Sequence record: NC_133255.1
Reading direction: 5' to 3' (one strand)
DNA length: 64,000 nt
Source of the DNA: Escherichia phage vB_EcoS-26175I
The stretch's first letter is position 1; each line of letters starts with the position of its first letter. Positions 6,463 through 18,943 of the stretch are shown piece by piece. The notes beneath the pieces are model-generated. The model did not search any database, had not been told where the DNA came from, and saw only the letters and a list, made by a program, of their open reading frames with translations. Made by a program: the position numbers and the translations under genes.

Positions 6463-6538
6463 TGGTAGTTAGTAGTGGATTTGAACCACTGTAGTCGCCC
6501 CGTATGAAGGAGGTGCATAACCACTCTGCCAACTAACT
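6463..6538 (-). tRNA. tRNA-Met/Ile2 (anticodon CAT)
   Basis: minus-strand cloverleaf: T-arm agtgg-atttgaa-ccact, 7-bp acceptor, anticodon loop ttCATac; TGG (CCA rc) encoded. Confidence 0.55.
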
Positions 6539-6544
6539 ATAATT

Positions 6545-6620
6545 TGGTACTCCGAGTTGGAATCGAACCAACGTTTGACGATTATCGGTCGCCCGTTCTA
6601 ACCTATTGAACTATCAGAGC
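6545..6620 (-). tRNA. tRNA-Ile (anticodon GAT), loop ccGATaa with C33
   Basis: T-arm gttgg-aatcgaa-ccaac, acceptor pairs with GU, D-arm gttc/gaac; anticodon loop has C at position 33. Confidence 0.55.
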
Positions 6621-6621
6621 A

Positions 6622-6888
6622 TTAATACGGGTACTTGGCTCTTTTCACTGCTCTTTCAAATTCTCTAATATGTTCTCTAGAGAGTGCAGATAAATCAAAG
6701 GCACAAGATACTAAACGTTCTTTCTTGAAGAATCCTAAATAAAAGGAGGCTGTTATACATTGCGTAGGTCTAGCAAAGATCTTGTAAACTCCGGATTTAG
6801 GGATTCCCATACCCTTTTGATAATTACTGCCATTTGTAGGCCCAGCCATTAAGTTTTTGGGTACTAAGTCAAAACGTATTTTAATCAT
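6622..6888 (-). CDS. hypothetical protein
   Basis: 88 aa ORF. Confidence 0.3.
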   Translation of the reverse strand: MIKIRFDLVPKNLMAGPTNGSNYQKGMGIPKSGVYKIFARPTQCITASFYLGFFKKERLVSCAFDLSALSREHIREFERAVKRAKYPY

Positions 6889-7178
6889 CGCATAATATCC
6901 AAATAAGATTCATAACGATAGTCTGTTAGGCCTTCCTCCGTCACCGTAACCTTCACTGGAGGTACCCGACGAACTAAACCATGAATCATCTTGTACTGAA
7001 TAGACTTAGATGGTTCGTGATCTTTTGGAAATACTTGTTTAACCGTTACTACTTTGAAGCCTTCACGAGGTGTTAGCACAACAACTTGATCACCTTCTTT
7101 TATTTTCCAAGACTCAGGAAATTCGTAAGTATAGCGTTGACCACCAGTTTGGAACACGACAGAAAGATAACGTTTCAT
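6885..7178 (-). CDS. hypothetical protein
   Basis: 97 aa ORF; promoter 7208-7236 upstream. Confidence 0.35.
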   Translation of the reverse strand: MKRYLSVVFQTGGQRYTYEFPESWKIKEGDQVVVLTPREGFKVVTVKQVFPKDHEPSKSIQYKMIHGLVRRVPPVKVTVTEEGLTDYRYESYLDIMR

Positions 7179-7207
7179 TTGGTTTCCCTCTCATTAATTT
7201 ATATAAA

Positions 7208-7236
7208 TATTATAACAAGAAATAAGAGAGAAGGCA
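7208..7236 (-). promoter_or_regulatory. sigma70-type early promoter
   Basis: same conserved element (caatttatataaatattata...gcaa). Confidence 0.55.
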
Positions 7237-7255
7237 AATGAATTTTTTAAATTTG

Positions 7256-7327
7256 ATGCTCCCACCAGGAATCGAACCCAGTTCAGATGCTTACAAGGCA
7301 ACTGCATCGCCAGCAATGCTTTAGGAG
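7256..7327 (-). tRNA. tRNA-Thr (anticodon TGT)
   Basis: T-arm with aatcgaa loop, acceptor gctccca/taggagc, anticodon loop ctTGTaa; no encoded CCA. Confidence 0.55.
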
Positions 7328-7494
7328 CATTAACCCGTTATTTCAACGGGATTTCTTTTTCATATACAGGAGACTTATCAGACATTACTGTCCTAGCCAA
7401 CTGCTGTAGAAATTCGAAGGAGAGTTTTAAACGTTCTTCACCCAACTCAACCTCAACGCACTTCATTTGTTTATCAACCTTTAGCTTTAGATTA

Positions 7495-7716
7495 TCAGCC
7501 ATCTTCGGATTCTCTTTGCTCAGCTATTGCTAGCCAGTTTGGTAAAAGAAACTTCGTACGAAATTCTTCATATGTTTCTTCTGGATGAAAGCTATAACCT
7601 TGCTTTTCATCATTTAATAAAACCGAACCGTCTTCCTGTTCATAAGCTCGGTATGTTTCACCAATAATTAAAACTCGTCTATTAGGATTTTTATTACGAA
7701 ACTCAAAAACGTGCAT
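7495..7716 (-). CDS. hypothetical protein
   Basis: 73 aa ORF. Confidence 0.3.
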   Translation of the reverse strand: MHVFEFRNKNPNRRVLIIGETYRAYEQEDGSVLLNDEKQGYSFHPEETYEEFRTKFLLPNWLAIAEQRESEDG

Positions 7717-7741
7717 AACGTTTCCTTAAATTGGTGCGGGA

Positions 7742-7816
7742 TACGAGAGTCGAACTCGTGTCTACTGGTTGGAAGCCAGTTATTCTAGCCACTGAACTAA
7801 TCACGCATGAATTGGC
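7742..7816 (-). tRNA. tRNA-Gly (anticodon TCC)
   Basis: T-arm acgag-agtcgaa-ctcgt, anticodon stem actgg/ccagt, loop ctTCCaa. Confidence 0.7.
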
Positions 7817-7822
7817 TGGAGA

Positions 7823-7898
7823 AGGAGGAATCGAACCTACCATTAACGGAGTCAAAGGCCGTTGTGCTAACCGTTACACTACTCTCCAAGTATTTGGC
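7823..7898 (-). tRNA. tRNA-Gln (anticodon TTG)
   Basis: T-arm with aatcgaa loop; anticodon loop ctTTGac. Confidence 0.6.
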
Positions 7899-7904
7899 TG
7901 GGAT

Positions 7905-7980
7905 GCCACGGATCGAACGTGGAACCTTCGGAGTCAGAGGCCGACGATCTGCCAATTGATCTACATCCCAATAATTTTTT
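7905..7980 (-). tRNA. tRNA-Gln (anticodon CTG)
   Basis: T-arm ccacg-gatcgaa-cgtgg, perfect acceptor tgggatg/catccca, loop ctCTGac. Confidence 0.6.
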
Positions 7981-8179
7981 ATTCTACAGGAACCGTGGCG
8001 ATTGGATCAGGTTCTTCTAGACGTTTACCATTATGATCAACACGAATAATACCACAACCCTCACAGATTACAACAGCACCATAGCCTTCTTTAACTTCGG
8101 CTTCTGTAATCAGCCCAGAAAGATCACCAGTATCTTTTCCCCACATATCAATGGAACATTCTTTGCAGAAATCAGCCAT
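7979..8179 (-). CDS. Cys-rich small protein (zinc-ribbon-like)
   Basis: 66 aa with CxxC...CxxC. Confidence 0.3.
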   Translation of the reverse strand: MADFCKECSIDMWGKDTGDLSGLITEAEVKEGYGAVVICEGCGIIRVDHNGKRLEEPDPIATVPVE

Positions 8180-8203
8180 ATTTTATTTCCCGTTTAAGTT
8201 AGT

Positions 8204-8278
8204 TGGTGCATCCTCAGGGAATCGAACCCCGATCGTAAAGTTCGTAGCTTTACATTCTTTCCATTGAAATAAGGACGC
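8204..8278 (-). tRNA. tRNA-Arg (anticodon ACG)
   Basis: T-arm with aatcgaa loop; anticodon stem taaag/cttta, loop ctACGaa. Confidence 0.7.
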
Positions 8279-8284
8279 AATATT

Positions 8285-8361
8285 TGGGGTGACTAGTGGA
8301 ATTCGAATCCACATAGGCCTGATTCACAATCAGGATCATTAACCAATTATGATATAGCCAC
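8285..8361 (-). tRNA. tRNA-His (anticodon GTG)
   Basis: T-arm gtgga-attcgaa-tccac; anticodon stem cctga/tcagg, loop ttGTGaa; 74-nt body consistent with the extra 5' G-1 of tRNA-His. Confidence 0.75.
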
Positions 8362-8676
8362 AATTGAAATCTCTAGTTATCCCTTTCGTAGGGGCTAAAG
8401 GGCGATACCCATCCTAAAGACTTCAATTGTGGCGGCTCTCCGAAACTCATCACACTAACAACTAGTTGATTACTTCTGGATTCTCGCCCAGAAAATTCTC
8501 TAGAAAGGTGCACCGTTACTCTTTGAGCCATTGAATATCAAGAAGTAGAAGGACTCGAACCTTCACGAGATAGACCATTTATCTCAGCCTCGTTTTCGGG
8601 TATCTTATGAGGAGTGGATGTTCCCCTTACGCCCTTTAGGAAGCCCCGTCTACCGATTCCGGCATACTTCAAGATT

Positions 8677-8766
8677 TGGCAGAAGATAATGGAGTCGAAC
8701 CATCACCGTATCACTACAGCGGGCCGGTTTTCAAGACCGGTTACGTACCACTACGTCCTATCTTCT
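8677..8766 (-). tRNA. tRNA-Ser (anticodon TGA), long variable arm
   Basis: 87-nt body; acceptor agaagat/atcttct; anticodon stem ccggt/accgg, loop ctTGAaa. Confidence 0.7.
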
Positions 8767-9121
8767 ATTGTTCGTATATTACAAAGTTTACAGATTCAGA
8801 GTAATAACCATTACTAGAACCATGCCATTTAACGGTTACACAGCCTTTAGCTGTGGCAAACTTATACCATGTATGGGTTACTGAATCCCAATCTTCTGTA
8901 GCGTGTGTGATTACTTCCTCTGCTTCTATGATTGGATAACCTAAAAGGTCATGTAAATCACCAATAATATCATCTATATGAACATCTTCACAGCAGTCCT
9001 GCTCATGATAAAACTTATAGTTCTTACCATCAGTACAAATGAAGATAAGAGTATCTTGGTCTTGGCATACATTAGTAAAAATTTTGCCAAGCATTTCATT
9101 ATAGATTGTCACTTCTGACAT
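8765..9121 (-). CDS. hypothetical protein
   Basis: 118 aa ORF. Confidence 0.35.
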   Translation of the reverse strand: MSEVTIYNEMLGKIFTNVCQDQDTLIFICTDGKNYKFYHEQDCCEDVHIDDIIGDLHDLLGYPIIEAEEVITHATEDWDSVTHTWYKFATAKGCVTVKWHGSSNGYYSESVNFVIYEQ

Positions 9122-9143
9122 ATTAGTTTCCTAGTAAGTTGTT

Positions 9144-9233
9144 TGGCGGAAGAAGAGAGATTCGAACTCTCAAGCCGTTTTACCAGTCAGCCACTTTCCA
9201 AGCGGTTTTCGTCACCTATCGATTTGCTCTTCC
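9144..9233 (-). tRNA. tRNA-Ser (anticodon GGA), long variable arm
   Basis: 87-nt body, T-arm gagag-attcgaa-ctctc; anticodon loop ttGGAaa. Confidence 0.5.
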
Positions 9234-9407
9234 GTAGATCTCAGGATTAAATCATAAACTTCATTAGCGGATACTGGAAGTATGAGATTATACATCTTTT
9301 GGTCATACCTCTGACCATACTCTATAAACACATACTCTTTAGTTAATGTATTAACAGCTAACCAGATATCAGTTATAGGAGTTTTCATCATGAGTTAATC
9401 CAATGTT

Positions 9408-9488
9408 TGGTAGGGATGGAGGGACTCGAACCCACACCCGAAGACTAGAACCTAAATCTAGCGCGTCTGCCAATTTCGCCACATCCCC
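9408..9488 (-). tRNA. tRNA-Leu (anticodon TAG), short variable region
   Basis: 78-nt body; anticodon stem ctaga/tctag perfect, loop ttTAGgt. Confidence 0.5.
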
Positions 9489-9495
9489 ATTTTAT

Positions 9496-9714
9496 TTAGT
9501 TAGAAATAAATAATAATCCCGCAACAATAGAACCTACGCCACTGAATACCATTATCAGCATAGCTTCTAAGCTGATAAAGCGGACAGTATATGGAGCGCC
9601 CCAAGAATAATCAGTAAAGAAAGTTTTCTTTTCTTTAGCTAAATCTTTAATAGTTCTAAAATAGATAGCTAGTGCTAAAGCTGCAAGAACTACAGAGGCT
9701 GCTAAGAATACCAT
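9496..9714 (-). CDS. small membrane protein
   Basis: 72 aa, two hydrophobic segments. Confidence 0.3.
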   Translation of the reverse strand: MVFLAASVVLAALALAIYFRTIKDLAKEKKTFFTDYSWGAPYTVRFISLEAMLIMVFSGVGSIVAGLLFISN

Positions 9715-9733
9715 ATTATTTCCTTAATTTGTT

Positions 9734-9809
9734 TGGTGGAGTCACTCAGAATTGAACTGAGTTCCACTGCTTGCAAGGCAGTAAGTTTAACCAAATAACC
9801 TATGACCCC
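9734..9809 (-). tRNA. tRNA-Ala (anticodon TGC)
   Basis: T-arm ctcag-aattgaa-ctgag; anticodon stem actgc/gcagt, loop ctTGCaa. Confidence 0.7.
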
Positions 9810-9814
9810 GAATT

Positions 9815-9893
9815 TGGTGGAGAATAAGAGATTCGAACTCTTCTGATATCCTCGGTGCAAGCGAGGTGTCCACTCCAAGCAGACCCATTCCCC
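9815..9893 (-). tRNA. second tRNA with anticodon TGC (Ala-like), 7-nt variable loop
   Basis: T-arm aagag-attcgaa-ctctt; anticodon stem cctcg/cgagg perfect, loop ctTGCac; atypical positions 8-9. Confidence 0.45.
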
Positions 9894-9902
9894 AAAATTT
9901 AT

Positions 9903-10166
9903 TTATTCTCTATACATATCGAGAACAGTTGCTACAATCTGAGCTTCTAGCCTAGCAATATCTTTATTCACTATATCAGATTCTACTACTAAGTGATTAT
10001 ATATTGCTTCAGTTTTAGCAAGATCTATATCAGATAGTTTATTAAGACTATTATAATACTTAGCATTATTGCAACGTTTCTTCATATCGGAAACTCGTTT
10101 ATGGAGGGTTCTTTGTTGATAACGTTGCGACATTAGTTTCTTAGCCATATCTTTAAGATCAAACAT
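9903..10166 (-). CDS. hypothetical protein
   Basis: 87 aa ORF. Confidence 0.3.
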   Translation of the reverse strand: MFDLKDMAKKLMSQRYQQRTLHKRVSDMKKRCNNAKYYNSLNKLSDIDLAKTEAIYNHLVVESDIVNKDIARLEAQIVATVLDMYRE

Positions 10167-10431
10167 AGATATTCCTTCTAGTTTACTAAGGCTATTAGCT
10201 CGGTGTGCGTATTACCCTCAGACATTAGCCAGTAGAGGATAACCGCTCTTCACAAACCCGATACACTATTCAGTTGCCGCTGAATCTAGTGGACTAATCT
10301 AGAACTTATTGCAAAGTATCCCCTGCCATTAGGGGTCTAATTGCAATTGTGCTTTTTGGCAGCCAGTCCTAGGTCGAGCTAATACCTTAGTGAACTTTGA
10401 TGAGGATTTCTCCTCATCAATTTATATAAAT

Positions 10432-10460
10432 ATTATAACAAGAAATTAAGCATCAAGCAA
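10432..10460 (-). promoter_or_regulatory. sigma70-type early promoter (TTGCTT-17-TATAAT)
   Basis: conserved element; followed leftwards by ~260 nt without annotated ORF. Confidence 0.55.
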
Positions 10461-10812
10461 GTACATTTTTAGCGATTTCTTGTAGTTCCTTAACGTCGCT
10501 AACGAAAAGGTAATCAGAGCTTCCAGAGTGCATACTCTGCATAACCACACCATCCTCTGGTGCATCTTCCTTCAAAGTAAGTCCTAACCAGAACTTGGCA
10601 AAACCAGGTGTTACCTCACCTTGACTTGCCTTGAACACATCGCCTTCTGTGATCTCTTGACCAGTAGAGAGTCCCATGTATGGTACGTTCAGATCAATAT
10701 CTTTGTAGAACTCAGCTAGATCTTGCTCGAAATCCCAACCTTTAGAGATAGCGAACTCCATTGTTACATGACCGAAATAGCCTTGAACCTTGCTTGATAA
10801 TTGCATTTGCAA
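10453..10812 (-). CDS. hypothetical protein
   Basis: 119 aa ORF. Confidence 0.35.
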   Translation of the reverse strand: MQMQLSSKVQGYFGHVTMEFAISKGWDFEQDLAEFYKDIDLNVPYMGLSTGQEITEGDVFKASQGEVTPGFAKFWLGLTLKEDAPEDGVVMQSMHSGSSDYLFVSDVKELQEIAKNVLA

Positions 10813-10831
10813 TTCCTTATTTTGAGTTAAT

Positions 10832-10905
10832 TGGTACTCGGTGATAGAATCGAACTATCGCAACCGCCGTGTAAAGACGGGGTTCTCCCATTAAACTAAC
10901 CGAGT
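10832..10905 (-). tRNA. tRNA-Val (anticodon TAC)
   Basis: perfect acceptor actcggt/accgagt, T-arm gatag-aatcgaa-ctatc, loop ttTACac. Confidence 0.7.
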
Positions 10906-10909
10906 AATT

Positions 10910-10987
10910 TGGTGGATTGCCTGGGATTCGAACCCAGAACTGACGGATTAAAGGTCCGCTACTCTTATCCAGTTGAGCTAGCAATCC
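10910..10987 (-). tRNA. tRNA-Lys (anticodon TTT), loop ccTTTaa with C33
   Basis: perfect acceptor and T-arm (ctggg-attcgaa-cccag); anticodon loop has C at position 33. Confidence 0.55.
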
Positions 10988-11451
10988 AATTTTTCTACTA
11001 ATAATTTAAAAGCATCTAGTACAGGTACTTCAAACCATTCTCCAGATACTCTATAATCTTTAAGAAGATTATGTAATTCTTTCTCTGTACGTCTTTTATC
11101 AGACGAAAATCTGAAATGGTATAGCTTGTAGTCTCTATTAGGTGAATAAGTTTGATAACTTGCTAACCTCTCATTCACATCTATAGTCATACCTATTTTA
11201 TACATGCCTGGCCATGCTGGATTACCAATTACATATACAAAACCTTCCGTTATAGGTATTTTATGCTCCCTTTTATACTTTAAGAGATTTAAGGCTGCCA
11301 TTCGATAACAGAATCTAAACTCTGAAGTTTTTAACTTACCTTCTTTACCCGAAATTTCGTTATATTTGCTCATATAAGCTCTTATGAGCTTATCATCTAT
11401 AATGAAGTTATCAGGAAGGTTTAAGGCAGCTAAAACTTTATTAATTAGCAT
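10978..11451 (-). CDS. T5orf172-type (GIY-YIG-like) domain protein
   Basis: motif GFVYVIGNPAWPGMYKIGMT...R...Y typical of the T5orf172/MUG113 GIY-YIG-like fold. Confidence 0.5.
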   Translation of the reverse strand: MLINKVLAALNLPDNFIIDDKLIRAYMSKYNEISGKEGKLKTSEFRFCYRMAALNLLKYKREHKIPITEGFVYVIGNPAWPGMYKIGMTIDVNERLASYQTYSPNRDYKLYHFRFSSDKRRTEKELHNLLKDYRVSGEWFEVPVLDAFKLLVEKLDC

Positions 11452-11626: not shown

Positions 11627-11704
11627 TGGAAGCGGGTGCAGGAATCGAACCTACCTCTTTCTAGCTTATGAGACTAGCGATCTCTACCAGAGATCTAACC
11701 CGCA
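11627..11704 (-). tRNA. tRNA-Met (anticodon CAT)
   Basis: T-arm with aatcgaa loop; anticodon loop ctCATaa; 1-72 pair mismatched. Confidence 0.6.
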
Positions 11705-11710
11705 ATTGTT

Positions 11711-11788
11711 TGGTCTCCGTGGGAGGATTTGAACCCCCGACCCTACCGCCCCAAACGGAACGCTCTGGCCAAACTGAGCTACACGGAG
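11711..11788 (-). tRNA. tRNA-Pro (anticodon TGG)
   Basis: perfect acceptor ctccgtg/cacggag; loop ttTGGgg. Confidence 0.6.
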
Positions 11789-12100
11789 AATATTCTTTGT
11801 TAACTCACTTTATAAAATATATTATACAGATATTTAAGCATAATAGCAAATGAGTTTTTAATAAATTTACTTATTGCGTAGGCCACCTCACGCTTCAAAC
11901 GCTCTGCTGACAAAGAAGTTTGCGAGACTTCTCTTAAATGCCAGAATAGACCCGCCGATCTATCGGAACCTACTCAATAAGTAAACTTTCGTTTACCTAC
12001 ACCTACCTGGTCGGGAGGATTTTCAGCGACTAGAACCGGCCGGAAACTCATCGCCTTGTTTATCTAGGAGTCCGTTCTCTAGGAAGCAGAAACCTAAATT

Positions 12101-12174
12101 TGGTGCGGTCGGAGGGAATCGAACCCTCAACTTCTGGTTGGCAACCAAAAATTATACCTTTTAACTACGAACGC
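12101..12174 (-). tRNA. tRNA-Gly (anticodon GCC)
   Basis: T-arm gaggg-aatcgaa-ccctc; loop ttGCCaa. Confidence 0.6.
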
Positions 12175-12312
12175 ATAATAAGTCAATCTAGGCAGGACTT
12201 GAACCTGCTATCACTTGTGCGGATTTACGAGAACCATTCTTTCACTCGAATCGAACGAGCTTCTACCCTCGGCAAGCTGGTGTCCCCTCTCCACCACGCT
12301 AGAATGTTTAAT

Positions 12313-12390
12313 TGGTACACCTGCTGAGATTCAAACTCAGGATCTTCCGATTAAGAGTCGGTTGCTTTAAGTCAACTAAGCTACAGATGC
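12313..12390 (-). tRNA. tRNA-Lys (anticodon CTT)
   Basis: T-arm ctgag-attcaaa-ctcag; D-arm gctt/aagc; loop ctCTTaa. Confidence 0.55.
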
Positions 12391-12930
12391 ATTTATATCT
12401 TTATAGGACTTACCAGCCAGTCTTGTATAGCGTTTTCGCAAACCATTATCTGACATGCCCAATTCTCTAGAAGCTCTAGACCATGAGTAATTTTTAACCC
12501 AGTACTCTATTTGTTCTACAGTAATTTCTTGTGGATTTTGACAGTGCTGTTTGCAGTAACTAGCTCTTTTAGCTATTTCTTTGTTGCAAATAGGACAGAA
12601 ATTTTTATCTGAACTTAATCCACGTTCTTCTATAGTTTTGAGAATATGATCAGCTTTACTTCGTACAATCAGATTTTCAAGAGAGAAATTTAGTTTATTT
12701 GTATCATCATGATCTACTTCTAAGTCAGAACTCAAAGATGGTAGATCTTTGTATACTCTCGCTAATACTCTGTGTAATAGAAGATGTTTTGATTTTCCAT
12801 TATGTTGAACAGTAAAGAAAGGATACCCAGAAGTATTAATCTGTATTGAAAGTATACGATTAACTTTAGTACTAAATACTTCCCCAGTCTCACTTATTAA
12901 GTATTCTGGATATTCGGGTATTTCTTTCAT
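12376..12930 (-). CDS. free-standing HNH homing endonuclease
   Basis: 184 aa; HNH-type motif LLLHRVLA...EVDHDDTNKLNFSLENL; embedded in tRNA array. Confidence 0.6.
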   Translation of the reverse strand: MKEIPEYPEYLISETGEVFSTKVNRILSIQINTSGYPFFTVQHNGKSKHLLLHRVLARVYKDLPSLSSDLEVDHDDTNKLNFSLENLIVRSKADHILKTIEERGLSSDKNFCPICNKEIAKRASYCKQHCQNPQEITVEQIEYWVKNYSWSRASRELGMSDNGLRKRYTRLAGKSYKDINASVA

Positions 12931-12947
12931 TACTGTTCCTTATAATT

Positions 12948-13024
12948 TGGCGCGACCGATGGGATTCGAACCCACATTCTCTCCCGTGACAGGGGAGTAC
13001 CATTACCAAGCCAGCCCCGATCGC
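12948..13024 (-). tRNA. tRNA-Asp (anticodon GTC)
   Basis: T-arm atggg-attcgaa-cccac; anticodon stem ctccc/gggag perfect, loop ctGTCac. Confidence 0.8.
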
Positions 13025-13033
13025 ATAATTTGT

Positions 13034-13219
13034 TTACTCAGCTTTGAGTTTTTCGATAGCTTCCTCAACCTCTTTTAGAGCTTCACGACGCTCTACTTGA
13101 CCTTGAAGTTCTTCAAGAAGTTCAGCTTTCAGAGCCTTAATAATATTACCACGAACCTTAATATTATTAATCAGATTATCACGATCAGCTTCTAGTCGAG
13201 CAATTGCACGAGTTGTCAT
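13034..13219 (-). CDS. hypothetical coiled-coil small protein
   Basis: 61 aa ORF. Confidence 0.3.
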   Translation of the reverse strand: MTTRAIARLEADRDNLINNIKVRGNIIKALKAELLEELQGQVERREALKEVEEAIEKLKAE

Positions 13220-13246
13220 ATCTATTTCCTCAGTTGTTAGTGAAAT

Positions 13247-13332
13247 TGGCGGGCCGTGTAGGAGTTGAACCTACTTTATCCTTGCGGATACGGATTAACA
13301 GTCCGGCGCTTAAACCGTTCAGCCAACGGCCC
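13247..13332 (-). tRNA. tRNA-Asn (anticodon GTT) with unusually long variable arm
   Basis: 83-nt body, perfect acceptor gggccgt/acggccc, T-arm gtagg-agttgaa-cctac; loop ctGTTaa; variable hairpin atcc-ttgc-ggat. Confidence 0.5.
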
Positions 13333-13339
13333 TAAAATT

Positions 13340-13415
13340 TGGACGACCGCATGAGATTCGAACTCACATAAGGAGGTTTTGCAGGCCTCCGCCTAAGCCA
13401 TTCAGCCAACGGTCG
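13340..13415 (-). tRNA. tRNA-Cys (anticodon GCA)
   Basis: T-arm atgag-attcgaa-ctcac; anticodon stem ggagg/cctcc; loop ctGCAaa. Confidence 0.65.
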
Positions 13416-13593
13416 ATTTATCTTGTTTTTCGAGATTAGTAAATTCTAAGTCTTTGGAATGCCCTATAGATCTAGCATAATAACCATCTCCAGCATCGTA
13501 GCCTGATTTACCACACTCACACATCTTAAACTCCCGATAACGAGTGAATATATGCTCAGAACCACAACACTTAAATTTAACTAACATTTTCAT
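13402..13593 (-). CDS. hypothetical Cys-containing small protein
   Basis: 63 aa ORF. Confidence 0.3.
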   Translation of the reverse strand: MKMLVKFKCCGSEHIFTRYREFKMCECGKSGYDAGDGYYARSIGHSKDLEFTNLEKQDKSTVG

Positions 13594-13832
13594 GAAACAC
13601 GCTCCGGTAGATCTTCTAATTTATACTCAGTAGCTACATTAGTAGCGTCTAGTAATAAACCCATATGTTTAAGGATTTTAGTAATAGATTCGCCTTCAGC
13701 TTCTTCTACAAAAGTGCGTAGTTGAATGAAGTCAATACCACCATCCATACCAGAGAAAATGTTTAGTAAGCGAAGCATTACCAGCTTACGTTCTTTTAAT
13801 TCTTGTTCTGTCATGTTGCTTCTCCAGTTCAA
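13590..13832 (-). CDS. hypothetical protein
   Basis: 80 aa ORF; promoter 13844-13872 upstream. Confidence 0.3.
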   Translation of the reverse strand: MNWRSNMTEQELKERKLVMLRLLNIFSGMDGGIDFIQLRTFVEEAEGESITKILKHMGLLLDATNVATEYKLEDLPERVS

Positions 13833-13843
13833 TTTATGTAATA

Positions 13844-13872
13844 ATTATACAGAACTTTAAGGATTTAAGCAA
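13844..13872 (-). promoter_or_regulatory. sigma70-type early promoter
   Basis: attata 13844-13849, aagcaa 13867-13872. Confidence 0.5.
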
Positions 13873-14152
13873 CTACATTTTTCAGAAATTTGATGCCTTT
13901 CTTTTTCTTCTTATATTTCCACGTTAACGGGTTCTGTCGATTATGAACGCTTGAGATCTTTGTCTCGTCAAAGTTCTTCAATACCATGTAATCACATGCC
14001 AACTGCTCTAGTGGAATGGTTTCTCCATCAAAAGCATAAACATAAGGCTGTTGACTAGCACGATAATGATAGACTTTGTTAATTCTACATTTCAGCGACT
14101 TATCCGCGCAGTAAATAAAGAAGTTTTCAGGATGCATCAGCATCTCCTTCAA
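13865..14152 (-). CDS. hypothetical protein
   Basis: 95 aa ORF. Confidence 0.3.
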   Translation of the reverse strand: MKEMLMHPENFFIYCADKSLKCRINKVYHYRASQQPYVYAFDGETIPLEQLACDYMVLKNFDETKISSVHNRQNPLTWKYKKKKKGIKFLKNVVA

Positions 14153-14154
14153 AT

Positions 14155-14229
14155 TGGTGCACCCTGTTCGTATCGAACGAACCTCTCAAGCTCTTCAGGC
14201 AAGCGCTAATCCATCTCAGCTAAAGGTGC
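14155..14229 (-). tRNA. tRNA-Phe (anticodon GAA), weak anticodon stem
   Basis: T-arm gttcg-tatcgaa-cgaac; standard register gives loop ctGAAga; anticodon stem has two U-U mismatches. Confidence 0.5.
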
Positions 14230-14235
14230 AAATAT

Positions 14236-14312
14236 TGGCAAACCTACTAGGACTCGAACCTAGACCGTACGGTTTTGGAGACCGACATGCTGTCCAGTAA
14301 CACTCTAGGAAT
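14236..14312 (-). tRNA. tRNA-Trp (anticodon CCA)
   Basis: T-arm ctagg-actcgaa-cctag; loop ctCCAaa; acceptor has mismatches. Confidence 0.5.
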
Positions 14313-14320
14313 GCAGAAAT

Positions 14321-14397
14321 TGGCGTCCTGTGCGGGGATCGAACCCGCAAATCCTACCTTGAAAGGGTAGTGACTTTACCAGTTTGTCTAACAGGAC
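14321..14397 (-). tRNA. tRNA-Glu (anticodon TTC)
   Basis: perfect acceptor gtcctgt/acaggac, T-arm gcggg-gatcgaa-cccgc, anticodon stem ctacc/ggtag; loop ctTTCaa. Confidence 0.75.
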
Positions 14398-14404
14398 TTA
14401 AATT

Positions 14405-14486
14405 TGGTGGGGGATGGAGGACTCGAACCTCCGCGTGGTATACCCGGTCTACAGCCAGGCGCCGTCGCCACTGAGCCAATCCCCCC
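14405..14486 (-). tRNA. tRNA-Tyr (anticodon GTA)
   Basis: 79-nt body, perfect acceptor gggggat/atccccc, T-arm ggagg-actcgaa-cctcc; loop ctGTAga. Confidence 0.65.
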
Positions 14487-14676
14487 CTATTTGAATGAAA
14501 AGTAAGTCGGTTAAACTCAAGGTGGAATATTTCAGGATTTCCTGACTTTACCCCTAAAAGTCAACTCGCTTAATTACTTCTCATTCAGATATGTTTCCAA
14601 ATTAGATAACTATTATATCAAGTTTTATGGCACTGAGCAAGTCAAATTTTAAAGAACTTGCTCAGTGCTGTATTAG

Positions 14677-14952
14677 TTAGTCGAACTTAGGAGTGACAGT
14701 TAAGGAGAACGGAAGTTCAAAAACTTCTTCACCCTCATCACTAACAGTGATTACACGACCTTTAAGTTCAGACATTGAAATATCAATATCAGCTTTTGCA
14801 TCTGGAGCCATGCCAGCTTCAACACATTTAGCTTTAATTTCCGGCAGAAGTTCTACATCATAGAAATAAAGCCATTCAATCTCACCTTCCCAGCCTTCCC
14901 AGGATTTACAGATTGCACTTTCAATACCAGTTGTTATAACACGATTTTGCAT
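14677..14952 (-). CDS. hypothetical protein
   Basis: 91 aa ORF; promoter 14983-15012 upstream. Confidence 0.35.
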   Translation of the reverse strand: MQNRVITTGIESAICKSWEGWEGEIEWLYFYDVELLPEIKAKCVEAGMAPDAKADIDISMSELKGRVITVSDEGEEVFELPFSLTVTPKFD

Positions 14953-14982
14953 TCGTTAACTCCTTCATCAATTTATATAACT

Positions 14983-15012
14983 ATTATACCAGAAATTTAA
15001 AGCAAAAGGCAA
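14983..15012 (-). promoter_or_regulatory. sigma70-type early promoter
   Basis: conserved element upstream of 14677-14952. Confidence 0.5.
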
Positions 15013-15042
15013 GTACATTTTTAAAAATTCTGTTTGGAGGAG

Positions 15043-15249
15043 CTAAACTCCAGATTCTTCAGCCAGATCAAGCCCAACCAATGTGATTGCCATAATAGCC
15101 GCGCCATGTTCTTTCTCTCCTAGCTCTTTGGCTTGAGTGAGAATATTTAGGAACTGCTTGTGGAAATCTTCCACTTCTTCTGTCATGCCTGCTTCAGAAA
15201 TAATACCTTTCAGCATAAAGCGCTGTGCAGTAATTTCAGGATTAGCCAT
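15043..15249 (-). CDS. hypothetical protein
   Basis: 68 aa ORF. Confidence 0.3.
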   Translation of the reverse strand: MANPEITAQRFMLKGIISEAGMTEEVEDFHKQFLNILTQAKELGEKEHGAAIMAITLVGLDLAEESGV

Positions 15250-15400
15250 TTATTATCTCCAGTTATTTAGAATGTAAGCCAAACTTAGGATCATAGCGAT
15301 CATAAGTCGTACCATTAGTTGAAGTCTTGATGCTATGAAAACGACAGTACATAAATTTACGTAGTGCTTTCTTAATAGCTTTCATTTTATTTCCTTAATT

Positions 15401-15478
15401 TGGTAGGGGTGGTGGGATTCGAACCCACAAAACCTGAATTTTAAGTCCAGTACCTATGCCAATTCGATTACACCCCCA
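15401..15478 (-). tRNA. tRNA-Leu (anticodon TAA), short variable loop
   Basis: T-arm gtggg-attcgaa-cccac; loop ctTAAaa; type-I length is unusual for Leu. Confidence 0.5.
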
Positions 15479-15486
15479 TGTAATCT

Positions 15487-15834
15487 TTAGAGTTCGTAAC
15501 CCTGAATATATCGAGCAAAACCAGTAATCTCGAACTGAATTGCCCATGCTACTTCCATATGCTCAATCTTACTAAAATGAGCGTCAGACTGTTCTAGGAA
15601 ATAACGAGAGATTATAGGGAACTCAATGTCAAAATCTTCCTTATCCATACCATAGAAGAAGTTTCCAGAAATATTACGAACTTCACGAAAGAAATCCTCA
15701 ATCTGAAAATCCATCAGAGGATAAGTATATTCCTCTTTGCTATCATCCGTTTGGAAGAAGCGGAAATGCACAAGGCAAGAGCCAATCAGATTTACTGCTG
15801 GAGTAGTGTAAATATCCATGTTAACCTCGATCAA
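15487..15834 (-). CDS. hypothetical protein
   Basis: 115 aa ORF. Confidence 0.35.
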   Translation of the reverse strand: MIEVNMDIYTTPAVNLIGSCLVHFRFFQTDDSKEEYTYPLMDFQIEDFFREVRNISGNFFYGMDKEDFDIEFPIISRYFLEQSDAHFSKIEHMEVAWAIQFEITGFARYIQGYEL

Positions 15835-16006
15835 TATCTAGAGAAATTCCAAATTCTGGATTAATACCAGAACCATTACATGCTGCGCATTCCCACTCTT
15901 CAAAACGCATATCGCCAGGTTCAGCATCATTAATAGTACCTGTTCCATGGCAGTGAGTACACATGCACTCTTCTAGTTCTTGTTTAAGCTCTTGAAACTT
16001 AGACAT
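15821..16006 (-). CDS. small Cys-rich protein (two CxxC pairs)
   Basis: 61 aa; CTHCHGTG...CAACNGSG. Confidence 0.3.
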   Translation of the reverse strand: MSKFQELKQELEECMCTHCHGTGTINDAEPGDMRFEEWECAACNGSGINPEFGISLDIDRG

Positions 16007-16023
16007 ATAGTCTCCTAGTTAAT

Positions 16024-16102
16024 TGGTGGCTCCCGGAGGATTCGAACCTACCTACCTTTCGCTTATGAGGCGACGGCTCATACCAAATGAGCTTGAGAAC
16101 CA
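16024..16102 (-). tRNA. tRNA-Met (anticodon CAT)
   Basis: T-arm with attcgaa loop; D-arm gctc/gagc; loop ctCATaa. Confidence 0.55.
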
Positions 16103-16106
16103 AATT

Positions 16107-16196
16107 TGGAGGAAGAAGTGGGAATCGAACCCACAAGGCTATGTTTCAAACCGACAGATTAGCAATCTGCTGCAATACCGTTATGCTATTCTTCCT
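16107..16196 (-). tRNA. tRNA-Ser (anticodon GCT), long variable arm
   Basis: 87-nt body, perfect acceptor ggaagaa/ttcttcc, T-arm gtggg-aatcgaa-cccac; loop ttGCTaa. Confidence 0.7.
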
Positions 16197-18913: not shown

Positions 18914-18943
18914 GTTTGATTCCTCTCTCAAATTTATAAATAT

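What the first reader, a model, noticed from the sequence alone, without database searches (positions are those of the whole stretch)
6463..16196. tRNA array of about 30 genes, several with non-canonical anticodon arms
Hand-folding gives tRNAs for all 20 amino acids on the minus strand. tRNA-Ile(GAT) at 6545-6620 and tRNA-Lys(TTT) at 10910-10987 both appear to have C rather than the near-universal U at position 33. tRNA-Phe (14155-14229) has two U-U mismatches in the anticodon stem, and tRNA-Asn (13247-13332) carries an extra variable hairpin. Anticodon-loop nucleases of bacterial defence systems recognise exactly this region, so these deviations could be resistance determinants. There are also three CAT-anticodon tRNAs and two TGC ones.
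Basis: partly seen in the sequence, partly recalled or inferred. Interest (0 to 1): 0.7.

Follow-up and report, generated by a model that had tools for sequence, protein, structure and literature searches.

The report
T5-like phage tRNA array, variant anticodon arms
This is the already annotated 31-gene tRNA cluster of a T5-like coliphage; its odd anticodon arms are real and conserved, and they fit the published idea that phage tRNAs are shaped to escape bacterial tRNA-cutting defences, though this is untested for these particular variants.

Summary
ARAGORN and Infernal find 29 tRNA genes at 6463-16195, plus two further calls at 20360 and 21594. All are on the minus strand and together they cover all 20 amino acids. 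Both methods place C at position 33 in tRNA-Ile(GAU) and tRNA-Lys(UUU). The tandem U·U in the tRNA-Phe anticodon stem and the extra hairpin in tRNA-Asn are also real.

The window is 100% identical to Escherichia phage vB_EcoS-26175III (Epseptimavirus), where these tRNAs are already annotated. It is the well-known T5-type "tRNA-rich region". It has experimental support in T5 relatives: tRNA-Lys, Thr and Asn against PARIS, Tyr against retron-Eco7, Lys against PrrC, and Thr against P2-OLD.

What appears unreported:
- C33 is fixed in a Lys allele found in 82 phage records, and it recurs on several independent Ile backgrounds.
- 13 of 31 phage tRNAs, against 0 of 32 E. coli tRNAs, have a broken anticodon-stem pair.
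- C33 is a published anti-determinant of E. coli t6A37 synthesis.

A strong rival explanation exists. The C33 Lys allele always travels with an overlapping GIY-YIG homing-endonuclease gene, so its spread may be DNA-level hitchhiking. Interest is moderate.

The parts
6463..6538 (-). tRNA-Met(CAU), elongator type by synteny with T5 T5t01; loop UUCAUAC, C27·C43
6545..6620 (-). tRNA-Ile(GAU) with C33 (loop CCGAUAA); 76-nt allele
   Evidence: allele counts
7255..7329 (-). tRNA-Thr(UGU). Anticodon arm identical to T5's, with U28·U42. No encoded CCA (the gene ends ...GCATC).
7732..7806 (-). tRNA-Gly(UCC)
7813..7888 (-). tRNA-Gln(UUG), C31·U39
7895..7970 (-). tRNA-Gln(CUG), C31·U39
8204..8278 (-). tRNA-Arg(ACG)
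8285..8361 (-). tRNA-His(GUG)
8530..8673 (-). Homologue of T5 'RNA1' (tRNA-like stable RNA), 80% identity
   Evidence: T5 annotation
8677..8766 (-). tRNA-Ser(UGA)
9144..9233 (-). tRNA-Ser(GGA). ARAGORN only; weak in Rfam (25.2 bits to RF01852). Poor D arm.
9408..9488 (-). tRNA-Leu(UAG)
9734..9809 (-). tRNA-Ala(UGC) copy 1, G3·U70
9815..9893 (-). tRNA-Ala(UGC) copy 2, G3·U70, irregular D arm, 38.1 bits
10250..10384 (-). Homologue of T5 stable RNA 'RNA2H'
10832..10905 (-). tRNA-Val(UAC)
10910..10987 (-). tRNA-Lys(UUU) with C33 (loop CCUUUAA) and C41; EPS7/BF23-type allele
   Evidence: 82 records with C33 against 0 with the U33 form
10978..11451 (-). GIY-YIG-type (T5orf172/MUG113) homing-endonuclease ORF, 157 aa. 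It overlaps the 5' end of tRNA-Lys(UUU) by 10 nt. It is not annotated in MK907269.
11627..11704 (-). Initiator tRNA-fMet(CAU). 100% identical to the T5 gene annotated as fMet. U1·U72 mismatch.
11711..11788 (-). tRNA-Pro(UGG), U28·U42
11875..11973 (-). Homologue of T5 stable RNA 'RNAIV' (89% identity)
12101..12174 (-). tRNA-Gly(GCC)
12182..12306 (-). Homologue of T5 tRNA-like stable RNA 'RNA2' (90% identity)
12313..12390 (-). tRNA-Lys(CUU). E. coli K-12 has no gene with this anticodon (own knowledge; none among the K-12 loci fetched). A27·A43.
12376..12930 (-). NUMOD4 + HNH_3 homing-endonuclease ORF, 184 aa. It overlaps tRNA-Lys(CUU) by 15 nt. It is not annotated in MK907269.
12948..13024 (-). 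tRNA-Asp(GUC)
13247..13332 (-). tRNA-Asn(GUU), 86 nt. It has a class-II-like variable hairpin (AUCC-GCAA-GGAU). The anticodon arm is host-like except for C27·U43.
   Evidence: 44 records
13340..13415 (-). tRNA-Cys(GCA), C31·A39
14155..14229 (-). tRNA-Phe(GAA) with tandem U·U (28·42, 29·41) and G37. This is the majority allele of T5-like phages.
   Evidence: 382 records against 13 for the regular allele
14236..14312 (-). tRNA-Trp(CCA). Two U·U mismatches in the acceptor stem; U27·U43.
14321..14397 (-). tRNA-Glu(UUC)
14405..14485 (-). tRNA-Tyr(GUA), 81 nt. It has G37 and only a 9-nt variable region, so it lacks the long variable arm that E. coli tRNA-Tyr has.
   Evidence: 25 records
15401..15477 (-). 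tRNA-Leu(UAA)
16024..16101 (-). CAU tRNA, probably tRNA-Ile2 (lysidine type). It is syntenic with T5 tRNA-Ile2(CAU) and 86% identical to it; most of the differences lie in the anticodon stem.
16107..16195 (-). tRNA-Ser(GCU)
16196..16705 (-). HNH_3 + AP2 homing-endonuclease ORF, 169 aa, abutting tRNA-Ser(GCU)
20967..21721 (-). Homologue of T5 stable RNA 'RNAX'. It contains the tRNA-like element at 21594-21667, which ARAGORN calls tRNA-SeC(UCA). That element scores 33 bits, has no CCA, has C at position 37, and has stem mismatches.

Best explanation
**What it is (shown).** The region is the tRNA-rich region of an Epseptimavirus, a T5-like phage of the Demerecviridae. It holds about 30 co-oriented, mostly CCA-encoding tRNA genes for all 20 amino acids. 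Small ORFs, three homing-endonuclease genes and homologues of T5's stable RNAs are interspersed among them.

**What it does (inferred from experiments on T5, SP15 and other coliphage tRNAs).** The set gives the phage its own near-complete tRNA supply. Translation can then continue when host tRNAs are cleaved by defence or competition nucleases. The set also suits the phage's AT-rich codon usage.

**How the odd arms fit (inferred).** These tRNAs are only 52-79% identical to E. coli isoacceptors. Their differences include features in the part of the molecule that those nucleases read and cut:
- altered bases at 39-42;
- broken pairs that shorten the anticodon stem;
- G37 in place of A37;
- extra or missing variable arms;
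- C33 in Ile(GAU) and Lys(UUU).

Slots at the same map position carry sharply different alleles in closely related phages. Homing endonucleases probably shuffle them, which gives a population-level repertoire of escape variants.

**Sub-claims and their confidence.**
- Identity as a T5-type tRNA region: about 0.99.
- Supply plus defence-evasion function of the array: about 0.75.
- C33, the Phe U·U pairs or the Asn hairpin being nuclease-resistance determinants: about 0.35 each, untested.

For C33 the most concrete routes are two. It could interfere with PrrC/RloC-type cleavage 3' of nucleotide 33. It could also block host t6A37 formation.
For: **Identity and layout.**
- The window is 100% identical to MK907269, where all 31 tRNAs are annotated.
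- It is syntenic with the T5 tRNA region.
- The array contains HNH and GIY-YIG ORFs.

**Comparison with the host.**
- Every E. coli K-12 counterpart has U33, and overall identity to host isoacceptors is 52-79%.
- 13 of 31 phage tRNAs, against 0 of 32 host tRNAs, have a non-pair at 27-31/39-43 (Fisher p = 2e-5).
- The mismatch rate is 14/155 in the anticodon stem, 3/155 in the T stem and 7/217 in the acceptor stem.
- Within allele families, variable sites are denser in the anticodon stem (13.9%) than in the acceptor and T stems combined (8.3%); p = 0.006.

**Conservation of the odd alleles.**
- Lys C33 is in 82 records; its U33 form is in none.
- Phe U·U/G37 is in 382 records, against 13 for the regular allele.
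- The Asn hairpin allele is in 44 records and the Tyr 81-nt allele in 25.
- Ile C33 occurs on two T5-like backgrounds and in two unrelated phage contigs.
- The Asn hairpin occurs in three forms of different sequence.

**Literature.**
- AriB cuts between 40 and 41; A41C inhibits cleavage; T5 Lys, Thr and Asn rescue infection.
- PrrC cuts 3' of U33.
- A phage tRNA-Lys rescues phages from PrrC170.
- P2-OLD needs paired CNG motifs and A37; phage tRNA-Thr resists through motif loss plus a shortened stem. The window's Thr lacks both CNG motifs and has U28·U42.
- Class II tRNAs escape CdiA-CT EC536, which cuts between 32 and 33.
- C33 abolishes t6A formation by E. coli TsaBCDE in vitro.
Against: - No cleavage, modification or charging data exist for any of this phage's tRNAs.
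- U33C had no effect on gamma-toxin cleavage.
- C33 is scattered over many anticodons in other phage arrays, so it is not tied to one nuclease target: 19 of 909 distinct tRNAs carry it.
- The window's Lys keeps U39. In the published work, changing U39 gave complete AriB resistance; C41 alone only inhibits cleavage.
- The window's Asn has the host's AriB site unchanged.
- The Lys allele has paired CNG motifs and A37, so by the published rule it should be sensitive to P2-OLD.
- Bacterial Schlafen cleaves some T5 tRNAs better than host ones, so variant arms can be a liability.
- Anticodon-stem mismatches could partly reflect relaxed constraint in an AT-rich genome.
- The C33 Lys allele is completely linked to a homing-endonuclease gene.
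- By my own knowledge (Nureki 1994), t6A37 helps E. coli IleRS. C33 may therefore cost charging efficiency rather than confer a benefit.
Confidence: 0.6

Rival explanations
1. Homing-endonuclease cassette, a DNA-level explanation. The C33 tRNA-Lys allele is common because it is physically part of a mobile GIY-YIG homing-endonuclease cassette. Other divergent alleles next to HNH genes may be the same. The endonuclease would cut the endonuclease-free allele in or near the tRNA gene, and the divergent sequence is then copied in by repair. On this view the sequence differences, possibly including C33, protect the DNA from the endonuclease or simply hitchhike. They would not be adaptations of the RNA.
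For: - The ORF at 10978-11451 has T5orf172/MUG113 domains and overlaps the 5' end of the Lys gene.
- An orthologue (87-100% identity) abuts the C33 Lys allele in 9 of 9 T5-like loci. T5, which has the U33 allele, lacks it at that slot.
- A 50%-identical homologue sits 76 nt upstream of the C33 tRNA-Lys in an unrelated 173.6-kb phage contig.
- T5-type and EPS7-type Lys genes share the first ~19 nt and then diverge to the 3' end, which looks like a recombination junction.
- Two more HNH ORFs overlap or abut tRNA-Lys(CUU) and tRNA-Ser(GCU), both of which are polymorphic slots.
- Allele identity between phages is bimodal and reticulate.
Against: - It does not explain C33 in tRNA-Ile. No endonuclease gene is adjacent, and a U33C point variant exists within the otherwise identical 77-nt allele: 7 records with C33 against 218 with U33.
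- It does not explain why mismatches concentrate in anticodon stems across 13 tRNAs.
- It does not explain why the U·U Phe allele dominates without a neighbouring endonuclease.
- The tRNA still has to function, and the allele is invariant over 35 nt in 82 records.
- Mobility and RNA-level benefit are compatible. A published case links a homing endonuclease (SegB) to the spread of anti-defence tRNA loci (PMC13096335; abstract seen).
Confidence: 0.3
2. Codon supply only. The array exists to match tRNA supply to the codon usage of a 40% G+C phage in a 51% G+C host, or to replace host tRNAs lost in general host shut-off. The odd anticodon arms would be tolerated noise.
For: - The window's G+C content is 39.9%.
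- Most anticodons are UNN or GNN types that read A/U-ending codons, and there is one tRNA for nearly every amino acid.
- This is the classical view, summarised in PMC10264068 and PMC10644984.
- Promoter strength and tRNA abundance mattered for rescue by tRNA-Tyr.
Against: - Covering all 20 amino acids, including an initiator tRNA, is more than rare-codon compensation requires.
- Experiments show that specific T5-like tRNAs, and not host copies, rescue infection from PARIS and PrrC170.
- This view does not predict mismatches enriched in the anticodon stem, nor allele replacement between phages that are ~95% identical.
- I did not compute codon usage here.
Confidence: 0.2
3. Partial decay. Some of the unusual genes are weakly functional or decaying copies kept only by linkage. 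Candidates are Ile C33, Phe U·U, Trp, the second Ala, Ser(GGA), Thr without CCA, and the 'SeC' call.
For: - Several have low covariance-model scores: Trp 36.3, the CAU tRNA at 16024 40.0, Cys 40.7, Phe 42.4 bits; Ser(GGA) is below threshold.
- T5's own annotation says that many of its tRNAs, including Phe, Asn and Thr, could not be converted into amber suppressors.
- T5 deletion mutants that lack many tRNA genes are viable.
- The Ile C33 76-nt allele is rare, in 5 records.
- The 21594 element lies inside an RNAX homologue and has C at position 37.
Against: - Ile and Lys, the two C33 genes, score among the best in the array, at 62.3 and 59.9 bits.
- By my reading of the sequence, the Ile gene keeps the E. 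coli IleRS identity elements that I recall: A73, C4-G69, U12-A23, C29-G41.
- The odd Phe allele is identical over 35 nt in ~380 records and far outnumbers the regular one.
- Mismatches are not enriched in T stems, and only mildly in acceptor stems.
Confidence: 0.15

Closest known systems
tRNA gene region (tRNA-rich region) of phage T5, BF23 and EPS7 (Demerecviridae, Markadamsvirinae)
   Same: - Same genome position, strand and gene order.
- Interspersed small ORFs, HNH and GIY-YIG endonuclease genes and stable RNAs (RNA1, RNA2, RNA2H, RNAIV, RNAX).
- Many genes are ≥95% identical.
- The window is a 100% match to an annotated Epseptimavirus genome.
   Different: Compared with T5 itself, this phage has 31 calls against 24-25. 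It adds Gly(UCC), Arg(ACG), Gly(GCC), Lys(CUU), Trp, Leu(UAA) and a second Ala. It carries different alleles of Ile, Lys(UUU), Asn, Tyr, Gln, Leu(UAG), Pro and Ala.
T5 tRNA-Lys(UUU), the PARIS/AriB-resistant variant (Burman 2024; follow-up PMC12409363)
   Same: - Same anticodon and same map slot next to tRNA-Val.
- Same first ~19 nt.
- Shares C41, the equivalent of the AriB-inhibiting 'Mut2' change.
   Different: - Only 74% identical overall.
- Keeps U39, so it lacks the fully protective 'Mut1' change.
- Has C33 where T5 has U33.
- Comes with an overlapping GIY-YIG gene that T5 lacks at that slot.
- Its resistance to AriB or PrrC is untested.
Phage tRNA-Thr(UGU) variants that resist P2-OLD (PMC12445682)
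   Same: The window's tRNA-Thr has lost both CNG motifs (U28-U29-G30 and C40-A41-U42) and has an interrupted stem (U28·U42). These are the two published resistance features. The broader pattern of shortened anticodon stems in 13 of 31 tRNAs matches this theme.
   Different: The published test used other phage Thr sequences; this one was not assayed. The Phe U·U pairs have no known cognate nuclease in E. coli.
Eukaryotic initiator tRNA-Met with C33 (multicellular eukaryotes) and the U33C mutants studied for t6A synthesis (PMC8887486)
   Same: A natural C33 in an ANN-decoding tRNA with C32 and U36-A37-A38. In vitro, C33 stops E. coli TsaBCDE from making t6A37.
   Different: Those are initiator tRNAs of eukaryotes, or engineered mutants. 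Here C33 is in bacterial-type elongator tRNAs (Ile, Lys) of a phage. Whether they lack t6A37 in infected cells is unknown.
Class II tRNAs (Leu, Ser, and bacterial Tyr) with long variable arms
   Same: The tRNA-Asn here has a 15-nt variable region with a 4-bp stem. Equivalent hairpins of different sequence occur in EPS7-type alleles and in an unrelated 173.6-kb phage contig.
   Different: The amino-acid identity is Asn, which is class I in cells, and the arm is shorter than typical class II arms. Conversely, this phage's tRNA-Tyr lacks the long arm.

Membership tests
T5-type tRNA-rich region of Demerecviridae | Located in a Demerecviridae genome | tested here: met
   100% identity over 16 kb to MK907269, whose taxonomy is Demerecviridae; Epseptimavirus
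T5-type tRNA-rich region of Demerecviridae | More than 20 co-oriented tRNA genes in the early region, syntenic with the T5 tRNA genes | tested here: met
   31 calls, all on the minus strand. The order matches T5, EPS7 and the BASEL phages.
T5-type tRNA-rich region of Demerecviridae | Interspersed homing-endonuclease genes and stable non-tRNA RNAs | tested here: met
   HNH_3, NUMOD4 and T5orf172 ORFs. Homologues of RNA1, RNA2, RNA2H, RNAIV and RNAX.
Canonical tRNA (Rfam RF00005) | Cloverleaf match at or above the gathering score of 29 bits | tested here: met
   30 of 31 reach 33-65.5 bits. Ser(GGA) at 9144-9233 does not.
Canonical tRNA (Rfam RF00005) | U at position 33 | tested here: not met
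   Not met for Ile(GAU) and Lys(UUU), which have C33 by both ARAGORN and Infernal. Met for the other 29.
Canonical tRNA (Rfam RF00005) | Five standard pairs in the anticodon stem (27-31/39-43) | tested here: not met
   13 of 31 have at least one non-pair, and Phe has two. Among E. coli tRNAs the figure is 0 of 32.
Nuclease-evading phage tRNA variants (as shown for T5 Lys/Thr/Asn, SP15 Tyr/Lys, and phage Thr against OLD) | Same anticodon as a host tRNA that a defence nuclease targets | tested here: met
   Lys UUU, Thr UGU, Asn GUU and Tyr GUA are all present. The targets are taken from the literature.
Nuclease-evading phage tRNA variants (as shown for T5 Lys/Thr/Asn, SP15 Tyr/Lys, and phage Thr against OLD) | Sequence differs from the host tRNA at the nuclease's cleavage or recognition site | tested here: inconclusive
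   - Met for Thr: G39 and loss of both CNG motifs.
- Met for Lys: C41, and C33 at the PrrC site.
- Not met for Asn at the AriB site, where 36-41 are identical to the host.
- No known cognate nuclease for Ile or Phe.
Nuclease-evading phage tRNA variants (as shown for T5 Lys/Thr/Asn, SP15 Tyr/Lys, and phage Thr against OLD) | The tRNA is not cleaved by the nuclease and rescues infection | not testable with these tools
   This needs biochemistry and plaque assays.
Substrates of E. coli t6A37 synthesis (TsaBCDE) | C32, U36, A37 and A38 in the anticodon loop | tested here: met
   The Ile loop is CCGAUAA and the Lys loop is CCUUUAA. The determinants are taken from PMC8887486.
Substrates of E. coli t6A37 synthesis (TsaBCDE) | U33 (C33 is an anti-determinant in vitro) | tested here: not met
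   Both have C33. The published test used E. coli initiator tRNA-Met U33C, so transfer to Ile and Lys is an inference.
tRNA-Sec or opal suppressor (for the call at 21594-21667) | tRNA-Sec architecture (long variable arm, extended acceptor and D stems), or at least a canonical loop with a purine at 37 and an intact acceptor stem | tested here: not met
   No RF01852 match was reported at this position. It scores 33 bits to the general tRNA model, has C37, lacks CCA, and has G·A and U·U in the acceptor stem. It lies inside the RNAX homologue.

The most novel reading that the evidence does not exclude
C33 is a selected, recurrent escape device of phage array tRNAs. In ANN-decoding tRNAs such as Ile(GAU) and Lys(UUU), and Asn(GUU) in other arrays, the U33C change would do two things. 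It would remove the uridine after which PrrC/RloC-type anticodon nucleases cut. It would also make the tRNA invisible to the host t6A37 machinery, giving an unmodified loop that modification-reading or U-turn-reading nucleases do not recognise. The tRNA would remain usable for translation. The change arose or was retained independently on several tRNA backgrounds in unrelated phages. For Lys it is spread as a cassette with a GIY-YIG homing endonuclease.
Probability: 0.2. Interest if true: 0.7.

Novelty: new member of a known kind. Interest (0 to 1): 0.4.

Why it matters
The array and the idea behind it are already known, so the finding does not open a new category.

It does point to concrete variants that are conserved in many sequenced phages and that nobody seems to have tested:
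- C33 in tRNA-Lys (82 records) and in tRNA-Ile.
- A tandem-U·U, G37 tRNA-Phe that is the majority allele in ~380 T5-like phage records.
- A tRNA-Asn with a class-II-like arm.
- A tRNA-Tyr without its long arm.

U33 is among the most conserved nucleotides in biology. A family of widely used model and therapeutic phages (BF23, EPS7, BASEL Bas28, Bas30 and Bas32) that naturally uses C33 tRNAs in E. coli would be a ready system for asking three questions:
- What does U33 do in decoding?
- How do t6A37 and anticodon nucleases read the loop?
- How do homing endonucleases spread anti-defence tRNAs?

In practical terms, tRNA allele content may help predict which T5-like phages plate on strains that carry PARIS, PrrC, retron-Eco7, Septu or OLD.

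Tried and rejected
- **IMG/VR scan for the Lys anticodon arm with N at position 33.** It was useful only for a rough 116 T: 3 C: 2 A count.
- **IMG/VR scans for the exact Lys and Ile alleles.** They gave 4 and 0 contigs, because IMG/VR holds few T5-like genomes. I switched to 35-mer megablast against the phage collection. With a 35-mer centred on position 33, every 28-base seed word must include that position.
- **PARIS-sensitive relatives.** I tried to learn whether Bas33 or Bas34 carry the C33 Lys allele, which would be indirect evidence on AriB sensitivity. The three BASEL phages I fetched turned out to be Bas28, Bas30 and Bas32, so this is unresolved.
- **The 'tRNA-SeC(UCA)' call.** I rejected it as a selenocysteine or suppressor tRNA.
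- **Promoter and terminator scan.** Counts were at chance level, so it was not used.
- **Literature searches for C33 or U33 in phage tRNAs.** They found nothing specific. The library lacks most subscription journals, including the older Russian work on BF23 and T5 tRNA genes, so prior description cannot be excluded.
- **Idea that C33 is specific to t6A substrates.** Weakened, because C33 also occurs in Val, Glu, Leu, His, Pro and Ala tRNAs of other arrays.
- **Phage-encoded enzymes.** I looked for RNA ligase, PNK, CCA-adding or t6A enzymes among 40 ORFs of the window and found none.

Full report

Yes. ARAGORN finds 31 tRNA genes in the window, all on the minus strand. Two more lie further on: Arg(UCU) at 20360-20434 and a weak call labelled SeC(UCA) at 21594-21667.

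Rfam's tRNA model finds 29 of the 31 above its gathering score in a whole-window scan. With laxer filters it also finds the second tRNA-Ala at 38.1 bits. Only Ser(GGA) at 9144-9233 rests on ARAGORN alone.

- The anticodon loops of Ile(GAU) and Lys(UUU) read CCGAUAA and CCUUUAA.
- Infernal independently aligns that second C to the consensus U, with full posterior probability and no irregular pairs. The scores are 62.3 and 59.9 bits, among the best in the array.
- tRNA-Phe has U28·U42 and U29·U41.
- tRNA-Asn is 86 nt long, with a 4-bp hairpin in its variable region.
- There are three CAU and two UGC genes.

**2. What the region is**

The 16 kb around the array is 100% identical to Escherichia phage vB_EcoS-26175III (MK907269), an Epseptimavirus of the Demerecviridae. 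All 31 tRNAs are already annotated in that record. Nearly 700 phage records share parts of the region.

It is the counterpart of the classical tRNA gene region of T5. It has the same order and orientation and the same mixture of small ORFs. Homologues of T5's stable RNAs sit in the apparent gaps: RNA1, RNA2H, RNAIV, RNA2 and RNAX.

By synteny with T5's curated annotation, the three CAU genes are:
- an elongator Met at 6463;
- the initiator at 11627, which is 100% identical to T5's fMet gene and has a 1·72 mismatch;
- tRNA-Ile2 at 16024, which is 86% identical to T5's.

The 'SeC' call lies inside the RNAX homologue. It has C at position 37, no CCA and mismatched stems, so I do not accept it as a selenocysteine or suppressor tRNA.

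Three homing-endonuclease-type ORFs sit against tRNA genes:
- a GIY-YIG-type ORF at 10978-11451, overlapping tRNA-Lys(UUU);
- a NUMOD4-HNH ORF at 12376-12930, overlapping tRNA-Lys(CUU);
- an HNH-AP2 ORF at 16196-16705, abutting tRNA-Ser(GCU).

The first two are not annotated in the GenBank record.

**3. Comparison with the host**

I fetched 14 stretches of E. coli K-12 that hold tRNA genes. They yielded 32 distinct tRNA sequences, covering every anticodon of the array except Ser UGA, Ser GGA, UCA (the 'SeC' call) and Lys CUU. K-12 lacks a Lys CUU gene (my own knowledge; none turned up in the K-12 loci fetched).
- All 32 have U33.
- The phage tRNAs are only 52-79% identical to their host isoacceptors, so they are not recent copies of host genes.
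- 13 of the 31 phage tRNAs have at least one non-standard pair in the five-pair anticodon stem, against none of the 32 host tRNAs (Fisher p = 2e-5).
- The excess is specific to that stem. Mismatched pairs number 14 of 155 in the anticodon stem, 3 of 155 in the T stem and 7 of 217 in the acceptor stem. The host figures are 0 of 160, 3 of 160 and 3 of 224.

- tRNA-Phe and tRNA-Tyr have G37 where E. coli has A37.
- This tRNA-Tyr is 81 nt long, with only a 9-nt variable region, so it lacks the long arm of E. coli tRNA-Tyr.
- tRNA-Thr lacks an encoded CCA in this phage and in Citrobacter phage YZU-L1.

**4. Comparison with related phages**

I compared the tRNA sets of T5, EPS7, YZU-L1 and the BASEL phages Bas28, Bas30 and Bas32. 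At each map position the genes are either nearly identical (≥0.91) or clearly different alleles (≤0.80). The pattern of sharing is reticulate:
- The window shares its Ile, Asn and Tyr alleles with Bas28.
- It shares its Phe allele with T5, Bas30 and Bas32.
- It shares its Ser(GCU) allele with T5 and Bas32.

Within allele families, variable sites are denser in the anticodon stem (13.9%) than in the acceptor and T stems combined (8.3%); p = 0.006. This figure is descriptive, because paired sites and shared ancestry are not corrected for.

To count alleles across the 50,697 phage records I used 35-base queries centred on the site of interest. With such a query, every 28-base seed must contain that site.

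| Allele | Records |
|---|---|
| Lys(UUU), C33 | 82 (includes EPS7, BF23, Yersinia phage phiR2-01 and many Salmonella phages) |
| Lys(UUU), same allele with U33 | 0 |
| Ile(GAU), window's 76-nt allele, C33 | 5 |
| Ile(GAU), 76-nt allele with U33 | 0 |
| Ile(GAU), common 77-nt T5/EPS7 allele, U33 | 218 |
| Ile(GAU), 77-nt allele with C33 | 7 |
| Phe, tandem U·U and G37 | 382 |
| Phe, regular EPS7-type | 13 |
| Asn, 86-nt hairpin | 44 |
| Tyr, 81-nt | 25 |

T5 itself has U33 in both Ile and Lys, on different stems. So none of these oddities is a sequencing error or a private mutation. The oddest-looking one, Phe, is the norm for the family.

**5. C33 beyond T5-like phages**

Among 909 distinct tRNAs in the phage loci I held, 19 (2%) have C33. 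They are spread over ten anticodons, and Ile(GAU) is over-represented at 5 of 29.

One unrelated 173.6-kb phage contig (L003) has C33 in both tRNA-Ile(GAU) and tRNA-Lys(UUU), and it also has an 86-nt tRNA-Asn.

The Asn hairpin exists in three forms of different sequence:
- AUCC/GGAU in the window;
- GUC/GAC in EPS7;
- GAGGA/UCCUC in L003.

In all three the anticodon arm stays almost identical to E. coli's. This argues that the hairpin is a maintained structure.

A scan of one genome from each of 100,044 bacterial and archaeal species for the C33 Lys arm gave 10 hits. Four of them are tRNA-Lys genes. All four lie inside dense tRNA arrays on metagenome-assembled contigs, and none is enterobacterial. 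C33 therefore looks like a property of array (phage or mobile) tRNAs, not of core cellular genes.

**6. How it most likely works**

- T5 tRNA-Lys is not cut by the PARIS nuclease AriB, which cuts E. coli tRNA-Lys between 40 and 41. U39A abolishes cleavage and A41C inhibits it. T5 Lys, Thr and Asn together neutralise PARIS.
- T5-like tRNA-Tyr overcomes retron-Eco7, and a T5-like tRNA-Lys overcomes PrrC170.
- P2-OLD cuts tRNAs that have paired CNG motifs in the anticodon stem and A37. Phage tRNA-Thr escapes through motif changes plus a shortened stem.

Against this background:
- The window's tRNA-Thr arm is identical to T5's. It lacks both CNG motifs and has a U·U interruption.
- Its Lys allele has C41 but keeps U39.
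- Its Asn allele keeps the host AriB site but adds a hairpin and loses the 27-43 pair.

The family-wide excess of broken anticodon-stem pairs and the G37 variants fit the same theme.

For C33 I found two concrete links:
- PrrC cuts tRNA-Lys immediately 3' of U33, and CdiA-CT EC536 cuts between 32 and 33, including in tRNA-Ile(GAU).
- C33 is an anti-determinant for E. coli t6A37 synthesis in vitro. Both C33 tRNAs here are ANN decoders that otherwise have the required C32 and U36-A37-A38.

The chance that both C33 genes fall among the 10 ANN decoders of 31 is about 0.10 by simple arithmetic, so this is only suggestive.

**7. What speaks against it, and the rivals**
- No data exist for these particular tRNAs.
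- U33C did not affect gamma-toxin.
- C33 occurs in many non-ANN tRNAs elsewhere.
- The Lys allele looks OLD-sensitive by the published rule.
- Variant arms can make phage tRNAs better targets, as seen with Schlafen.

The most serious rival concerns the Lys allele. The GIY-YIG ORF overlapping its 5' end is present next to the C33 allele in all nine T5-like loci examined. It is absent at that slot in T5. A 50%-identical homologue lies 76 nt upstream of the C33 tRNA-Lys in the unrelated contig L003. T5-type and EPS7-type Lys genes share their first ~19 nt and then diverge. The allele is therefore part of a mobile endonuclease cassette. Its prevalence, and perhaps its sequence differences, may reflect homing and protection of the DNA from the endonuclease, not RNA-level selection.

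This does not explain several things: C33 in Ile, which has no adjacent endonuclease and exists as a point variant within one allele; the stem-mismatch excess; and the dominance of the U·U Phe allele. Mobility and benefit can also coexist.

Codon supply and partial decay remain contributing explanations.

**8. Novelty and verdict**
- The array is already known and annotated.
- Not found in the searchable literature: the specific variants; the recurrence of C33 on independent backgrounds; the anticodon-stem mismatch excess relative to the host; the conserved hairpin in tRNA-Asn; and the linkage of the C33 Lys allele to a homing endonuclease.

I file it as a new member of a known kind, with moderate interest (0.4). 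The most novel reading still open is that C33 is a selected device that evades both the t6A machinery and nucleases. I give that reading about 0.2 probability.

Noticed in passing
window 10978-11451 (-) and 12376-12930 (-): [quoted passage not shown] Neither is annotated in the matching GenBank record MK907269, which shows empty gaps there.
   Followed up: partly
window 10910-11451; L003 3159-3576; L091, L123-L127, L142-L144: The C33 tRNA-Lys(UUU) gene and the GIY-YIG ORF occur together in 9 of 9 T5-like loci. They also occur together, at 50% protein identity, in an unrelated 173.6-kb phage contig. This suggests a tRNA-plus-endonuclease cassette that moves between phage families.
   Followed up: partly
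window 8530-8673, 10250-10384, 11875-11973, 12182-12306, 20967-21721: The 'gaps' in the array hold homologues (79-90% identity) of T5's stable RNAs of unknown function: RNA1, RNA2H, RNAIV, RNA2 and RNAX. Two of them (RNA1, RNA2) are annotated as tRNA-like in T5. No Rfam family matches them.
   Followed up: partly
window 21594-21667 (-): A tRNA-like element inside the RNAX homologue is called tRNA-SeC(UCA) by ARAGORN and in GenBank. The homologous T5, BF23 and Bas32 element is called tRNA-Ser(ACU), with a different 'loop'. It is probably a tRNA-like domain of RNAX, not a decoder.
   Followed up: partly
window 14405-14485 (-): This tRNA-Tyr allele is 81 nt long, has no long variable arm and has G37. 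Sister phages carry 88- or 91-nt alleles with the arm. Septu is reported to cut the tRNA-Tyr variable loop (abstract of PMC13096335), which makes this allele worth testing.
   Followed up: partly
window 7255-7329 (-): tRNA-Thr(UGU) ends ...GCATC in place of ...GCACCA in this phage and in Citrobacter phage YZU-L1. CCA is therefore not encoded and would have to be added after transcription. T5, EPS7 and the BASEL phages encode it.
   Followed up: no
window 16024-16101 (-) versus T5 tRNA-Ile2(CAU): The two genes are 86% identical. The acceptor arm is identical, the D and T arms each differ at one or two positions, and the anticodon stem is almost wholly replaced. The Cys alleles of T5 and this phage show a similar pattern, with matching acceptor ends but different anticodon stems. 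Exchange or diversification appears concentrated in the anticodon stem.
   Followed up: partly
window 17179-17871 (-), 17858-18964 (-), 38184-39035 (+): The phage carries a PnuC-type NMN transporter, a NadR-like NMN adenylyltransferase/kinase and a Sir2-family protein, forming an NAD-salvage and NAD-related gene set beside the tRNA array. This may be relevant to NAD-depleting defence systems.
   Followed up: no
window 5730-6098 (-) and 36004-37878 (+): A small free-standing glycyl-radical domain protein (GrcA-like, 122 aa) lies just below the array. An anaerobic ribonucleotide reductase (NrdD) lies further on.
   Followed up: no
L146, L147, L148, L150 (metagenome-assembled contigs of Cyclobacteriaceae and rumen Clostridia): These contigs hold dense tRNA arrays, up to 11 genes within 1 kb. 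They contain C33 in Lys(UUU), Asn(GUU) and Ala(UGC), together with Ile(UAU) genes and several G37 loops. They are probably phage or mobile arrays binned into bacterial genomes.
   Followed up: no
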